DNA of 64,000 nt from Eledone cirrhosa (Eukaryota): contig OZ024763.1 of the NCBI GenBank assembly GCA_964016885.1, positions 22,258,001 to 22,322,000 on the forward strand, written 5' to 3'. A program made the position numbers and the translations under genes. How positions within the stretch are numbered: the first letter of the stretch is position 1; each line of letters starts with the position of its first letter. The notes under the pieces are model-generated. The model worked only from the letters and a program-made list of their open reading frames with translations. It had not been told where the DNA came from and did not search any database. Below are positions 41,935 through 63,809 of the stretch, piece after piece.

Positions 41935-42965
41935 CAAAAAGCACCCAGCCCACACTGTAAAGTGGTCGTGTAGGAGCCATAGCAAAAAGCACCAGCCCAC
42001 ACTGTAAAGTGGTCGTGTAGGAGCCACGGCAAAAAGCACCAGCCCACACTGTAAAGTGGTCGTGTAGGAGCCATAGCAAAAAGCACCAGCCCACACTGTA
42101 AAGTGGTCGTGTAGGAGCCACGGCAAAAAGCACCAGCCCACACTGTAAACTGGTCGTGTAGGAGCCATAGCAAAAAGCACCAGCCCACACTGTAAAGTGG
42201 TCGTGTAGGAGTCACGGCAAAAAGCACCAGCCCACACTGTAAAGTGGTCGTGTAGGAGTCACGGCAAAAAGCACCAGCCCACACTGTAAAGTGGTCGTGT
42301 AGGAGCCATAGCAAAAAGCACCAGCCCACACTGTAAAGTGGTCGTGTAGGAGTCACGGCAAAAAGCACCAGCCCACACTGTAAAGTGGTCGTGTAGGAGT
42401 CACGGCAAAAAGCACCAGCCCACACTGTAAAGTGGTCGTGTAGGAGCCATAGCAAAAAGCACCAGCCCACACTGTAAAGTGGTCGTGTAGGAGCCATAGC
42501 AAAAAGCACCAGCCCACACTGTAAAGTGGTCGTGTAGGAGCCATAGCAAAAAGCACCAGCCCACACTGTAAAGTGGTCGTGTAGGAGCCATAGCAAAAAG
42601 CACCAGCCGACACTGTAAAGTGGTCGTGTAGGAGCCATAGCAAAAAGCACCAGCCCACACTGTAAAGTGGTCGTGTAGGAGCCATAGCAAAAAGCACCAG
42701 CCCACACTGTAAAGTGGTCGTGTAGGAGCCATAGCAAAAAGCACCAGCCCACACTGTAAAGTGGTCGTGTAGGAGCCATAGCAAAAAGCACCAGCCCACA
42801 CTGTAAAGTGGTCGTGTAGGAGCCATAGCAAAAAGCACCAGCCCACACTGTAAAGTGGTCGTGTAGGAGCCATAGCAAAAAGCACCAGCCCACACTGTAA
42901 AGTGGTCGTGTAGGAGCCACAGCAAAAAGCACCCAGCCCACACTCTAAAGGGGTTGTGTAGGAGT
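41935..42965 (+). repeat. 47-bp minisatellite, about 21 copies, derived from the RTE 3' UTR unit
   Basis: Unit aaaaagcaccagcccacactgtaaagtggtcgtgtaggagccatagc. Confidence 0.97.
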
Positions 42966-43049
42966 CTTATCAGTCTTTTATTACATATCTGTGAATGCTT
43001 TGTATTAACTACACTATGTTAATTGAAATGTTTGTATTTCTTGCAGACC

Positions 43050-43826
43050 ATGAATAAACACATTGATTTCTACTGGGTAAATGACATGATTCCTTTTGAG
43101 GAAGATTCCAGGCATGAATTCAAATGTCATAAAAATTTGGCAGTCGAAGACCTACCACCATGGACCCAGGAGAACCAGAGACGTACGCGGAGGTCAGTAT
43201 CTCGCACTCTGAATGCTTTTCTGAACACGGGCCAAGGAGGTACAGTCTACCTCGGTGTTGCGGACGATGGTGCGATTGTAGGGTTGCCGTTAACACTCTT
43301 ACAGAGGGACCACATGAAGGTTAACCTCGACAACCTGATGAAACGCTACAAACCGAAAGTGGACGTGAACCGATACGCAATTCATTTTGTACCGGTTATC
43401 AGTCATACACTTTCGAAGATCGAAGCCTATCGGAAATGCAGCAAAATCAGCCAGGAGAATGAAATCTACTCGAAAGAGGAGCGCCTGCAAAACCATTTAT
43501 GTCAGTCATATGCCAGATGCTGGTGTGATGCACACGCCAACATGATGGTGAAAGAAGGGATAGCTATACACAAGTTTGTTATTGAAATCTATATGAAACC
43601 CTGGGACCAGGAGACCATGATCTGGAACGACATCGTTCCCGGAGTCAACCTGCACCCTTTACATACGAATGAGGAGGGTTTGGTATTTACAAGGACTTTG
43701 GCAGGGGTTAAACCCTGTGATGACCAAGACATTATAAATATTACCACAAAAGATGTGCAACTGATATTCCAGACAAGAATTAATAATATTAAGAAAAAAA
43801 TTGAAGCATTAAAAGCTGAGAATTAA
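43050..43826 (+). CDS. Schlafen-like / AlbA_2 (PF04326-type) domain protein, 258 aa, single coding exon
   Basis: This is a complex, non-repetitive ORF with Schlafen core motifs FEEDSRHEFK and LNAFLNTGQGGTVYLGVADDGAIVGL. The acceptor tttgtatttcttgcAG ends at 43046 and is followed by accATG at 43050. The track's TTG start at 43023 is intronic. Confidence 0.9.
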   Translation: MNKHIDFYWVNDMIPFEEDSRHEFKCHKNLAVEDLPPWTQENQRRTRRSVSRTLNAFLNTGQGGTVYLGVADDGAIVGLPLTLLQRDHMKVNLDNLMKRYKPKVDVNRYAIHFVPVISHTLSKIEAYRKCSKISQENEIYSKEERLQNHLCQSYARCWCDAHANMMVKEGIAIHKFVIEIYMKPWDQETMIWNDIVPGVNLHPLHTNEEGLVFTRTLAGVKPCDDQDIINITTKDVQLIFQTRINNIKKKIEALKAEN

Positions 43827-44434
43827 TTATGTTAGATGTTGTTGTTGTTGATTATCACCGTTTCAAGTCCACTTTCCATGCTAGTATGGGTTGGACAGGT
43901 TGTCAAAGTTTGAAACTGGTGTTAAAACTCTCGATGACCATCATCATCACTATTTAACATCCATTTTTCCACGCTTGCATGGGTTACATGGGTTGTTACG
44001 TTATGAGATAGGTCAGGTCCAGCGACTATGTCTTGCTCACATGGATCTGTATGTTGGCTTGGTTCCTATGGCTGGATGCCCTTCCTAACGCCAACCACTT
44101 TACAGTGTGGGCTGGGTGCTTTTTATCATGACACCAACATGACCACTTTACAGTGTGGACTGTGTGCTTTTTTATCATGACACCAACATGACCACTTTAC
44201 AGTGTGGACTGTGTGCTTTTTTATCATGACACCAACATGACCACTTTACAGTGTGGACTATGTGCTTTTTGTCATGTCACCGAAACAACCACGATATATG
44301 TGTTGGACAAAGCCTTTGCTTGCACTGCATCCCTCCACTTGTCATTTCAGTTAAGTAGATAAAGATGAAGAGACCCTGCACAAAATGGAGTACACTCTCA
44401 ACAGCAGCATCAGCAACATTCTGTGGCTAAGGTT

Positions 44435-45275: not shown

Positions 45276-45680
45276 GGAGGCACATGGCCTAGTGGTAAGG
45301 GCATTGGACTTACGATCATAACATCGTGGGTTCGATTTCTGGACTGGGTTGTGTTTTGTGTGTGTGTTTTTGAGCAAAACCCTTCATTTCATGTTACTCT
45401 AGTATACTCAGCTGAAAAGAAATACCAGCTATAGCTGGAGGTTTAACACTGTGATGGACAGACGTCCTGCCCAGGAGAGAGTCTTAGTCGCTTCACGCCA
45501 TAGAAACCAAGTTAAGGGCCAGCCTGATGACCCTCCAGGGTCGAGACAGACTTTAACATTGCGATGGACTGGCATCCTGTCCAGGGGATGTTTTGTACTC
45601 TCAGTCGCTTTGTGCCACAGAAACCACAATAAGCATCGGCCTGATGGGCCTCAGGGTTGAGACAGACTTCAGACTTCACC
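45276..45680 (+). mobile_element. CORE-like SINE with a different, duplicated tail
   Basis: Same head and core, then gatggactggcatcctgtccagggg...ggcctgatg...gagacagacttt twice. Minus-strand relatives lie at 6830-7215 and 12730-12985. Confidence 0.8.
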
Positions 45681-47884: not shown

Positions 47885-48472
47885 TCAGCTTTTCATTATG
47901 ACACCAGCACTACCACTTTACAGAGGTGCATTTTATCATGGTACCAGCACAACCACTTTACAGAATGTATTGGGTGCATTTTATCATGGCACAAGCACTA
48001 CCACTTTACAGAATGTACCAGGTGCATTTTATAATAGCACCAGCACTACCACTTTACAAGGTGGACTGAGTGCTTTTCATTATGACTCCAGCATTACAAC
48101 TTTACAGACTGTACTAGGTGCATTTTGTCATGGCACTAGCACTACCACTTTACAGAATTTACTGGATGCATTTTATCGTGGCACCAGCACTACCACTTTA
48201 CAGAATATACTGGGTGCATTTTATCATGGCATCATTACAACCACTTTACAGAATGTACTGGGTGCATTTTATCATGGCACAAGCATTAAAACTTTACAGA
48301 GTACACTGGATGCTCTTTTTTTGTGGCATGAGCACAACGACTTTACAGAATGTACTGGGTGTATTTTATCATGGCACCAGCGCTAACACTTTACAGCATG
48401 GATTGGGTCTTCTTTATCATGGCACCAGCACAACCACTTTACAGAATGTACCGGGTGTATTTTATCATGGCA
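47885..48472 (-). repeat. ~48-bp degenerate minisatellite (RTE 3' UTR unit)
   Basis: Unit ggcaccagcactaccactttacagaatgtactgggtgcattttatcat. Confidence 0.9.
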
Positions 48473-62958: not shown

Positions 62959-62989
62959 CTCTAGAGTTTTAACTGTGTACTCACAGGTT

Positions 62990-63300
62990 CATCAGACAGG
63001 ACAAACTGAAGTACAATCTTAAGTCTGTCAACGTACCTTTTTCTTCGTTTGAAGCCATGGCTGCCAACCATAAAAGATGGAGAACCGTCTGCCACGAAAG
63101 TATAAAGAACTTTGAGAAATCTCGTTTAGCCCACCTCTGTGAGATAAGATCTGACACCAGATTCCGGTCAGGCATTCCAGCCTGTCTGTACAAGATCCTG
63201 TCACCTGCACCAGATGCAGATTGATGTGTAAATTGGCAGCTGGACTGAAATGTCATTTGAGGCATAAACATAAAACAATGAACTGAAAAGACTGTTGAAC
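62990..63300 (+). mobile_element. RTE-BovB-like LINE 3' end with C2H2 finger, frameshifted
   Basis: The + strand reads QDKLKYNLKSVNVPFSSFEAMAANHKRWRTVCHESIKNFEKSR, then CTRCRLMCKLAAGLKCHLRHKH in another frame. Confidence 0.75.
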
Positions 63301-63326
63301 CCTCATACGTCAAATCGACAGGAGAG

Positions 63327-63357
<31 letters not shown>

Positions 63358-63809
63358 TATATACATACCTACAGTATATATACAAAGAGGGGCGGCCTAC
63401 CAAAACACTTATCTGACTCCAATAAGAGCTTCGGCACGAGGCTCTAGGCACCTGAATGAAACATTTTACAATCTCAGACCTGTCAACTCTCCCCGTCCAA
63501 CGAGATCTCCCTCCCACCTTGGGGTGGAAGAGAGATGTCTTCTCTTGTGAAAAATGGGTATAGCTTTCATTATGTAAAATCTCCCCATTTTGCATCACTC
63601 CTCCACGTTTTGGGGCACCTTTTTTCATGGTACTCTCCATTTGGGTTTTAAGAGGTTGGCAGGTCTGGGTATGGTATCGTGTTGTATTGAAGCTTGGCAG
63701 TGAAAATTTGTATGACATGTCTCAATCTTCCATAAGTAACACATTGAATTCATTTTCTCTCGTTTTGTAAATACAAATGTACTTATATATATATATATAC
63801 ATATATATA

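What the first reader, a model, noticed from the sequence alone, without database searches (positions are those of the whole stretch)
43050..43826. Stand-alone Schlafen/AlbA_2 nuclease-like gene in an invertebrate (probable cephalopod) genome
Seen: an intact 258-aa ORF in a single exon, with E-x4-E-F-K (E17, E22, K24), AFLNT-x-x-GG-x-x-YLGV-x-D-D-G, a His/Cys cluster (HLCQSYARCWCDAH) and a short C-terminal coiled-coil-like tail. There is no helicase domain. Known: the ExxxxEFK and GVxD acidic residues form the metal-dependent RNase site of mammalian SLFN11/13/14 (tRNA/rRNA cleavage, antiviral). Single SLFN-like domains assemble into the C. elegans PUCH piRNA-precursor nuclease, and prokaryotic Schlafens act in phage defence. 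Inference: this may be an active, oligomerising RNase serving invertebrate innate immunity or small-RNA/transposon control. I know of no functional description of such a protein in molluscs.
Basis: partly seen in the sequence, partly recalled or inferred. Interest (0 to 1): 0.8.

Follow-up and report, generated by a model that had tools for sequence, protein, structure and literature searches.

The report
Octopus relative of worm piRNA cutter
This octopod gene encodes a small stand-alone Schlafen protein of the same subfamily as TOFU-2, the cutting subunit of the worm piRNA-making enzyme PUCH, with relatives from sponges to lancelets, so it is likely an active RNA-cutting enzyme and would represent the old animal stock from which worms built PUCH, though its RNA target is untested.

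Summary
The 258-aa ORF at 43050-43826 is real and is a Schlafen/AlbA_2 domain with no helicase (Pfam E 7e-10; fold matches SLFN5/11/12/13 and the SAMD9 tRNase domain). Corrections: the motif residues are E18, E23, K25, D72, and a splice acceptor lies 3 nt before the ATG, so only the coding part is one exon. It was the only Schlafen match found in this genome. It belongs to a conserved animal subfamily (sponges, sea anemone, molluscs, annelids, arthropods, priapulid, orthonectid, lancelet, tunicate, nematodes) marked by a His/Cys set: H27, H88, H149, C157, C159. C. elegans TOFU-2, the catalytic subunit of PUCH, carries all five, aligns over 222 columns (E216 = E23) and nests in the family (100/99; AU p 0.0016). 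TOFU-2 adds a DDX1-like SPRY domain. Databases already auto-name such proteins 'tofu-2-like', but my searches found no paper on them outside nematodes. Most likely an active metal-dependent endoribonuclease for small-RNA processing (about 0.45); SAMD9-like tRNA cleavage is the main rival (about 0.3). Substrate, oligomer state and zinc binding are untested, and this genome also has Zucchini-like genes.

The parts
43050..43826 (+). Coding sequence, 258 aa, stand-alone Schlafen/AlbA_2 protein of the TOFU-2 subfamily
43030..43046 (+). Pyrimidine tract and AG splice acceptor (AG at 43045-43046); the exon would begin at 43047, 3 nt before the ATG, so an upstream exon (not located) is inferred
   Evidence: sequence; run X4 contig laid from exactly 43047 while contigs of X1-X3 continue upstream; annotated Octopus isoforms join three different N-termini at the same I-M junction
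43101..43124 (+). E18-x4-E23-F-K25 catalytic motif; E23 = TOFU-2 E216 = SAMD9 E196; K25 = TOFU-2 R218 = SAMD9 K198
   Evidence: PMC10567574, PMC10246899, PMC13056530
43263..43265 (+). D72 of G-V-x-D, third acidic active-site residue; = TOFU-2 D269 = SAMD9 D241
43128..43130 (+). H27, subfamily-specific histidine, candidate zinc ligand (inferred)
   Evidence: 98 of 99 family rows, 0 of 12 outgroup rows
43311..43313 (+). H88, candidate zinc ligand (inferred)
   Evidence: 100 of 101 family rows; also in 3 of 12 outgroup rows
43398..43571 (+). Subfamily-specific insert (about residues 117-174) holding H149 (43494-43496), C157 (43518-43520), W158 and C159 (43524-43526)
   Evidence: the H149/C157/C159 set is absent from the 12 outgroup Schlafen domains and from the 27 prokaryotic and viral loci
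43722..43820 (+). C-terminal long helix 225-257, matching the C-terminal helices of TOFU-2 (residues up to 429); possible oligomerisation element (untested)
   Evidence: PMC10567574 construct boundaries

Best explanation
The gene encodes a stand-alone Schlafen domain of the TOFU-2 subfamily that is likely an active Mg/Mn-dependent endoribonuclease and would cut short RNAs near their 5' end during small-RNA processing, as TOFU-2 does in the worm enzyme PUCH. Steps: (1) shown: fold, intact E18/E23/D72 site and membership of the TOFU-2 subfamily. (2) Inferred from TOFU-2, SAMD9 and SLFN11: these acids hold the catalytic metal, K25 and the R45-R52 helix bind RNA, and cutting leaves a 5' phosphate. 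(3) Inferred: H27/H88/H149/C157/C159 bind zinc and shape the substrate pocket. (4) Inferred: activity needs assembly with copies of itself or with partners not found here, perhaps through the C-terminal helix. (5) Least sure: the substrate is a short capped or structured RNA, in a pathway that runs beside Zucchini; nematodes would have fused a DDX1-like SPRY domain to this enzyme and, lacking Zucchini, made it their main piRNA 5' cutter. Separate odds: TOFU-2 subfamily about 0.9, active RNase about 0.8, small-RNA processing role about 0.45.
For: Searching with a C. remanei hit of the query retrieves C. elegans TOFU-2 at 77% identity. Family profile against TOFU-2 205-429: probability 99.9%, E 9e-34, 222 columns. 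With the 4 nematode-like or orthonectid rows removed from the profile, TOFU-2 scores 113 bits in one domain across the insert, against 50-105 bits in split matches for 14 other Schlafen domains. TOFU-2 keeps 12 of 13 key residues and has R for K25. A tree without the insert and without the H27/S51/H88/E208 columns puts TOFU-2 inside the family at 100/99; grouping it with the outgroup is rejected, p-AU 0.0016. In this genome the Schlafen part of TOFU-2, the C. remanei domain, the query and PF04326 each match only this locus. The triad is intact in 87 of 96 family rows. 66 of 74 near-full-length relatives are 350 aa or shorter, so no sensor domain is the rule. It is kept even in the orthonectid Intoshia. 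TOFU-2 E216A abolishes PUCH cleavage, which is metal-dependent and leaves a 5' phosphate (PMC10567574 section 7).
Against: PUCH needs TOFU-1 and SLFL-3/4 as well; TOFU-1 plus TOFU-2 alone did not cut (PMC10567574 sections 6-7). No second Schlafen gene was seen here, though that search scored only 2 candidates, works exon by exon and would miss divergent pseudo-enzymes. The genome has two Zucchini/PLD6-like and two PIWI-like loci (assignment by recalled motifs), so the usual piRNA 5' cutter appears to be present. The protein has no SPRY and no strongly hydrophobic segment (maximum 19-residue hydropathy 1.47). On core columns alone TOFU-2 scores no better than the best outgroup (82 against 84 bits). 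With the long-branch outgroup P0165 kept in, support was only 80. Cephalopods group with an annelid and a sponge rather than with other molluscs, so hidden paralogy is possible and one-to-one orthology is not shown. The outgroup lacks TOFU-1, SLFL-3/4, SAMD9, SLFNL1 and mammalian SLFNs. Most Schlafens in the papers I read cut tRNA.
Confidence: 0.45

Rival explanations
1. A SAMD9/SLFN11-like stress or antiviral effector: once activated by a partner or by infection it would cleave tRNA (or rRNA) and shut down translation.
For: The best solved-structure hit of the family profile is the SAMD9 tRNase domain (E 1e-6, with a second weak match over the C-terminal half), and VIA-align gives Z 9.0, rmsd 3.3, 153 aligned. 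SAMD9 E196, D241, K198, K214, R221 and D192 line up with E23, D72, K25, R45, R52 and D19 (alignments; numbering check; roles from PMC10246899). Bacterial and CRISPR-linked Schlafens are tRNases (PMC13056530, PMC13462974). Unspecified Schlafen transcripts rise in Vibrio-infected mussel gills (PMC7772429, passage only; subfamily unknown).
Against: No sensor or NTPase domain, unlike SAMD9, SLFN11 and the prokaryotic effectors. SAMD9's essential E218 aligns with S49, a variable column. One copy found, and steady conservation (35-42% identity to bivalves, sea anemone and sponges), unlike the expanded, positively selected mammalian cluster (10.1101/2024.01.12.575368, passages). The only characterised member of the subfamily is not an immune tRNase.
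Confidence: 0.3
2. A housekeeping RNA-processing or quality-control nuclease unrelated to piRNAs, possibly working with the DDX1 helicase (a partner of the tRNA-ligase complex, recalled).
For: TOFU-2's SPRY domain is 40% identical to the SPRY of this genome's DDX1-like gene (E 3e-36), a fusion that may hint at a functional link. Retention in Intoshia and broad, low-copy occurrence.
Against: The phenotypes reported for tofu-2 mutants are piRNA defects (PMC4015493, PMC10567574 passages). A domain fusion in one lineage is weak evidence.
Confidence: 0.15
3. A catalytically silent or incomplete subunit that acts only as a scaffold or with partners too divergent to be seen.
For: TOFU-2 is inactive without its two partners (PMC10567574). 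9 of 96 family rows lack one triad residue, 5 of them D72N.
Against: E18 in 95 of 96, E23 in 93 of 98 and D72 in 95 of 102 rows indicates selection on catalysis. Needing a partner does not make it silent.
Confidence: 0.1

Closest known systems
C. elegans TOFU-2 (SLFL-2), catalytic subunit of PUCH
   Same: Single Schlafen fold plus C-terminal helices, alignable end to end (TOFU-2 205-429). E211/E216/D269 = E18/E23/D72. Shared H220/H285/H342/C349/C351 = H27/H88/H149/C157/C159, and N-E-E-G...R. Same clade in the tree.
   Different: Only 25-29% identical. No N-terminal SPRY domain. No TOFU-1 or SLFL-3/4 partner found. The host keeps Zucchini-like genes. Substrate unknown.
Human SAMD9 tRNase domain (PDB 7ksp)
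   Same: Single-lobe AlbA_2 nuclease domain of similar span (VIA-align Z 9.0, rmsd 3.3, 153 aligned); counterparts of E196, D241, K198, K214, R221.
   Different: No SAM, SIR2, NTPase, TPR or OB domains. No counterpart of E218; E184 could not be aligned by sequence. SAMD9 lacks the C-W-C motif and H27.
Mammalian SLFN5/11/12/13/14 N-terminal nuclease
   Same: C-lobe fold (Foldseek E about 1e-5; VIA-align Z 8.8-9.9, rmsd 2.5-4.6, 119-136 aligned) and the Ex4ExK motif (PMC13056530).
   Different: One lobe instead of two, no helicase, 9-18% identity.
Prokaryotic Schlafen defence effectors (pSlfn, Cash, Avs9) and AlbA_2-NB-ARC proteins
   Same: Ex4(E/D)xK and GVxD core.
   Different: They are sensor-fused. 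The 27 prokaryotic and viral loci fetched match only the core (46 bits or less) and none has the H-x-C-x-C motif.

Membership tests
Schlafen/AlbA_2 domain (PF04326) | Profile match over the curated cut-off | tested here: met
   39.9 bits against 25.3, E 7.3e-10
Schlafen/AlbA_2 domain (PF04326) | Schlafen C-lobe fold | tested here: met
   Model pLDDT 82.8; top Foldseek and VIA-align hits are SLFN13/5/11/12/14 and SAMD9
Schlafen/AlbA_2 domain (PF04326) | Catalytic acids Ex4ExK and GVxD | tested here: met
   E18, E23, K25, D72; triad intact in 87 of 96 family rows
Schlafen/AlbA_2 domain (PF04326) | Metal-dependent RNase activity | not testable with these tools
   needs biochemistry
TOFU-2 (SLFL-2) subfamily | Full-length alignment to TOFU-2 200-433 with the shared His/Cys set | tested here: met
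   hhalign 99.9%, 222 columns; all five His/Cys residues shared
TOFU-2 (SLFL-2) subfamily | One clade with TOFU-2 against other Schlafen domains | tested here: met
   100/99 and p-AU 0.0016 with 11 outgroup rows; 80 with the long-branch row P0165 included; outgroup incomplete
TOFU-2 (SLFL-2) subfamily | One-to-one orthology (reciprocal best hit, tree matching species) | tested here: inconclusive
   TOFU-2's Schlafen part hits only this locus; the C. elegans proteome could not be searched back; cephalopods do not group with other molluscs
PUCH complex | SPRY domain on the catalytic subunit | tested here: not met
   Absent from the ORF and from the 7 annotated Octopus cluster members of 258-292 aa
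PUCH complex | TOFU-1 and SLFL-3/4 partners in the genome | tested here: inconclusive
PUCH complex | m7G-cap- and U-dependent cleavage of piRNA precursors | not testable with these tools
   needs biochemistry
SAMD9/9L | SAM-AlbA_2-SIR2-NTPase-TPR-OB architecture | tested here: not met
   258-aa single-domain protein
SAMD9/9L | Four acidic residues E184, E196, E218, D241 | tested here: not met
   E196 and D241 have counterparts, E218 aligns with S49, E184 not alignable
Mammalian SLFN (groups I-III) | Two-lobed N-terminal nuclease domain | tested here: not met
   Only one lobe aligns (119-136 residues)

The most novel reading that the evidence does not exclude
PUCH's cutter is not a worm invention. 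Animals from sponges to lancelets carry a zinc-containing, stand-alone TOFU-2 orthologue that works as a self-assembling, cap-proximal endoribonuclease and defines an unrecognised, Zucchini-independent route for making small RNAs from short capped transcripts. Nematodes fused a DDX1-derived SPRY domain to it and added pseudo-enzyme partners when they lost Zucchini.
Probability: 0.3. Interest if true: 0.85.

Novelty: new variant of a known kind. Interest (0 to 1): 0.6.

Why it matters
PUCH was described as unrelated in sequence to Zucchini, and earlier commentary framed the TOFU factors as worm-specific (PMC10567574 discussion; PMC4015490 title and passages). A low-copy subfamily with an intact active site across most invertebrate phyla gives PUCH a traceable ancestor. 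It makes two open questions testable with one small protein: how nematodes replaced Zucchini, and whether animal Schlafens began in small-RNA processing or in tRNA-cutting immunity. It also points to a conserved His/Cys site in TOFU-2; the word 'zinc' does not occur in the main text of the PUCH paper. The locus itself is an ordinary member of that family and is already auto-named in databases, which caps the score.

Tried and rejected
Homotrimer plus 3 Zn prediction: no answer, score 0.00 in both runs; the alignment was not used and no controls were folded; not evidence either way. Dimers were not tried (one job only). Sequencing runs: no RNA holder listed. Upstream exon: tblastn of six relatives' N-termini against the window gave only chance hits, and the 44 unlaid letters of the X4 contig were not printed, so the exon is not located. 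dN/dS: no orthologue DNA available, not computed. The insert 117-175 searched alone in the ESM Atlas gave nothing at 0.9 or above. Horizontal transfer or viral origin: rejected; 25 prokaryotic and 2 viral loci match only the core, BFVD hits are 8-14% identical, and the Atlas clusters shown are all eukaryotic. Pseudogene or retrocopy: rejected; frame intact, relatives have the same length, acceptor upstream. Expression data for the Nematostella member: its accessions were not found in the supplements of PMC8476169 (file cut when stored; the row shown uses other gene ids) or PMC11464780 (1 file unreadable), so this is uninformative. TOFU-1, SLFL-3/4, SAMD9, SLFNL1 and whole mammalian SLFN sequences could not be obtained for the tree. 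The Cullin_Nedd8 hit (E 0.095) and the coiled-coil VIA-align hits at Z 4.4 or less were taken as helix noise. PMC7685563 (a survey of eukaryotic reformulations of prokaryotic immune components) was not held and may discuss this clade. Earlier findings of the scan: none returned.

Full report
Observation. Window 43050-43826 (+) is an open frame of 258 codons from ATG to TAA in otherwise repeat-rich DNA. Pfam gives SLFN_AlbA_2 at residues 18-141, 39.9 bits against a cut-off of 25.3. An AlphaFold2 model from an 18-sequence alignment (pLDDT 82.8) matches SLFN13, SLFN5, SLFN11, SLFN14, SLFN12 and SAMD9 by Foldseek (E 1e-5 to 9e-4). By VIA-align, all 5 chains with Z of 8 or more are Schlafen-family chains: SLFN12 (Z 9.9, rmsd 2.5, 119 aligned), 7q3z, pig and human SLFN11, and SAMD9 (Z 9.0, rmsd 3.3, 153 aligned). 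Only one Schlafen lobe is present and there is no helicase.

Gene structure. A pyrimidine tract and AG (43045-43046) lie 3 nt before the ATG. Four runs of one study hold the sequence, none with its kind on record. Contigs of X1-X3 run unbroken from 42960 to about 43900. One 808-letter contig of X4 is laid from exactly 43047 to 43810 with 44 letters left over. The output does not print those letters or say at which end they lie, so this is a weak hint of a spliced transcript. Independently, annotated Octopus isoforms join three different N-termini at the same I-M junction (P0189/P0002, P0190, P0192). The coding sequence is one exon, but the gene very likely has an upstream exon, which I did not locate. 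The query, PF04326 and the C. remanei relative each match only this locus in the 3.0-Gb genome (4, 2 and 1 candidates scored, exon by exon, so these are lower bounds).

The family. Named relatives: Octopus (76%), Argonauta (67%), seven bivalves, Ephydatia, Lamellibrachia and Scylla; Paralvinella, Nematostella, Bulinus and C. remanei; Styela; Branchiostoma, Priapulus, Halichondria and Lymnaea; Pristionchus, Intoshia, Strigamia and Anabrus. No vertebrate or Drosophila name appeared, which is weak evidence of loss. The exhaustive search found 558 proteins at E 0.001 or better and listed 150. Of these 150, 74 passed a near-full-length plus H-x-C-x-C filter (one, P0142, is an NB-ARC protein that passes by a match outside the domain), and 66 of the 74 are 350 aa or shorter. 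I aligned the 109 proteins of 195-450 aa out of the 167 then held; 102 have C157 and C159 and were counted as family. Among them E18 is kept in 95 of 96 filled rows, E23 in 93 of 98, K25 in 94 of 98, D72 in 95 of 102, H27 in 98 of 99, H88 in 100 of 101 and H149 in 102 of 102; the full triad is intact in 87 of 96. C151 (7 of 102) and D73 (36 of 102) are not conserved. Three His and two Cys this conserved suggest a zinc site (inference; geometry not checked).

It is the TOFU-2 subfamily. NCBI names the O. vulgaris member 'protein tofu-2-like' and the lancelet and Halichondria members 'schlafen-like protein 2'. The C. remanei hit P0157 (E 2e-10) retrieves one longer protein, C. elegans Schlafen-like protein 2 (TOFU-2, 433 aa, SPRY plus AlbA_2), at 77% identity. 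The query aligns with TOFU-2 at 29% over 217 columns (E 4e-17 for the pair). The 75-sequence profile, which contained P0157, aligns over 222 columns at 99.9%. With P0157 and three other divergent rows removed, TOFU-2 still scores 113 bits in one stretch through the insert, while 14 other Schlafen domains score 50-105 bits in split matches; on the core alone it is level with the best outgroup (82 against 84 bits). The mapping is E211/E216/R218/H220/D269/H285/H342/C349/C351/E384 to E18/E23/K25/H27/D72/H88/H149/C157/C159/E208. None of the 12 outgroup rows has H27 or the H149/C157/C159 set; 3 have H88. A quick tree of 49 rows without the insert separated family from outgroup at 80. After dropping the long-branch row P0165 and four diagnostic columns, the careful tree gave 100/99, and forcing TOFU-2 and P0157 into the outgroup was rejected (p-AU 0.0016). 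Limits: the outgroup holds only what the searches returned, and cephalopods group with Paralvinella and Ephydatia rather than with other molluscs, so paralogy inside the family is possible. Searching this genome with whole TOFU-2 gave 4 matches: the Schlafen part hits only this locus, and the SPRY part hits three others, the best a DEAD-SPRY-helicase (DDX1-like) ORF at 40% identity. PMC4015493 already noted the DDX1 likeness. TOFU-2 is thus a fusion of a DDX1-like SPRY domain and a member of this family.

How it likely works. In PUCH, E216A abolishes cleavage, which needs Mg, Mn or Ca, is cap-dependent, leaves a 5' phosphate and requires TOFU-1 plus SLFL-3 or -4 (PMC10567574, sections 6, 7, 11). 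In SAMD9 the equivalents of E23, D72, K25, R45 and R52 are needed for tRNA cleavage or binding (PMC10246899); R or K is kept at position 52 in 77 of 100 rows but at position 45 in only 46 of 98, and SAMD9's E218 has no counterpart. An active RNase is therefore likely (about 0.8). For the substrate I commit to small-RNA processing (about 0.45). The only characterised member does this, and a sensor-less, low-copy, steadily conserved enzyme fits a constitutive job better than a triggered toxin. Against it, no PUCH partner was found, and the genome has two two-exon PLD6/Zucchini-like loci and, among four Argonaute loci, two with PIWI-like motifs (clade assignment by recalled motifs). The protein is therefore probably not the main piRNA 5' cutter here. 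SAMD9-like tRNA cleavage is the main rival (about 0.3).

What is in print. Ten searches were run. 'schlafen' with 'octopus' gave 0 papers. 'tofu-2' gave 18 papers, 15 listed, and no title or abstract start shown concerns non-nematode relatives. The PUCH paper's discussion names SLFNL1 and poxvirus proteins as other single-domain cases and no invertebrate family. A Schlafen phylogenomics preprint found no significant homologue outside jawed vertebrates with its mammalian queries. What I saw: PMC10567574 passages and sections 6, 7, 11; PMC13462974 abstract and the first part of its results; PMC12027330 part 1 of 4; passages only of PMC12680541, 10.1101/2024.01.12.575368, PMC10246899, PMC7772429, PMC4015493, PMC4015490, PMC13056530, PMC3710099 and PMC11114477; supplement searches only of PMC8476169 and PMC11464780. 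PMC12680541 built an all-kingdom AlbA_2 tree that includes EukProt proteomes; I could not see its figure and supplements, which may contain this clade unnamed. PMC7685563 was not held, and most subscription journals are not searched.

Verdict. A real, intact gene and an ordinary member of a widespread but apparently unstudied animal subfamily whose one characterised member is PUCH's catalytic subunit. It differs from TOFU-2 in lacking SPRY and visible partners. Novelty: new variant of a known kind. Interest 0.6.

Noticed in passing
window 41935-42964: 47-bp tandem array, 21.9 copies, 96% matches, ending about 80 nt before the splice acceptor; related 46-49-bp units at 32128-32222, 36910-37126, 44094-44281 and 47925-48472. 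The stretch at 44052-44110 has very high contig depth, so the unit belongs to an abundant genomic repeat.
   Followed up: partly
window 18627-20141 (-), with 20045-20874 (-): 505-codon stop-free frame and neighbours that look like a LINE reverse-transcriptase remnant (recalled motifs, not scanned).
   Followed up: no
window 62984-63721 (-): 246-codon stop-free, non-repetitive frame, not examined.
   Followed up: no
window 45280-45350 (+): tRNA-like A-box/B-box text, probably a tRNA-derived SINE head (by eye).
   Followed up: no
L031 106-2316 (-) = G000:C1 near 341128887: Uninterrupted 735-aa DEAD-SPRY-Helicase_C (DDX1-like) ORF whose SPRY is 40% identical to TOFU-2's.
   Followed up: partly
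L035/L039 and L036/L040 (G000:C5): Two separate two-exon, single-HKD PLD6/Zucchini-like genes on one contig (assignment by recalled motifs).
   Followed up: partly
P0157 (C. remanei CRE_27298): Annotated as the Schlafen domain alone, without the SPRY domain of its 77% identical C. elegans counterpart: either a split gene model or a natural SPRY-less TOFU-2.
   Followed up: no
P0121 and P0092 (unnamed): One family member is fused to three CCHC zinc knuckles (a nucleic-acid-binding add-on); another protein of 2337 aa carries about 20 AlbA_2 repeats.
   Followed up: no
P0142, P0147, P0149, P0158, P0160, P0161 (unnamed): A separate group of AlbA_2-NB-ARC (STAND-like) proteins among the closest outgroups of the family in these searches.
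   Followed up: partly
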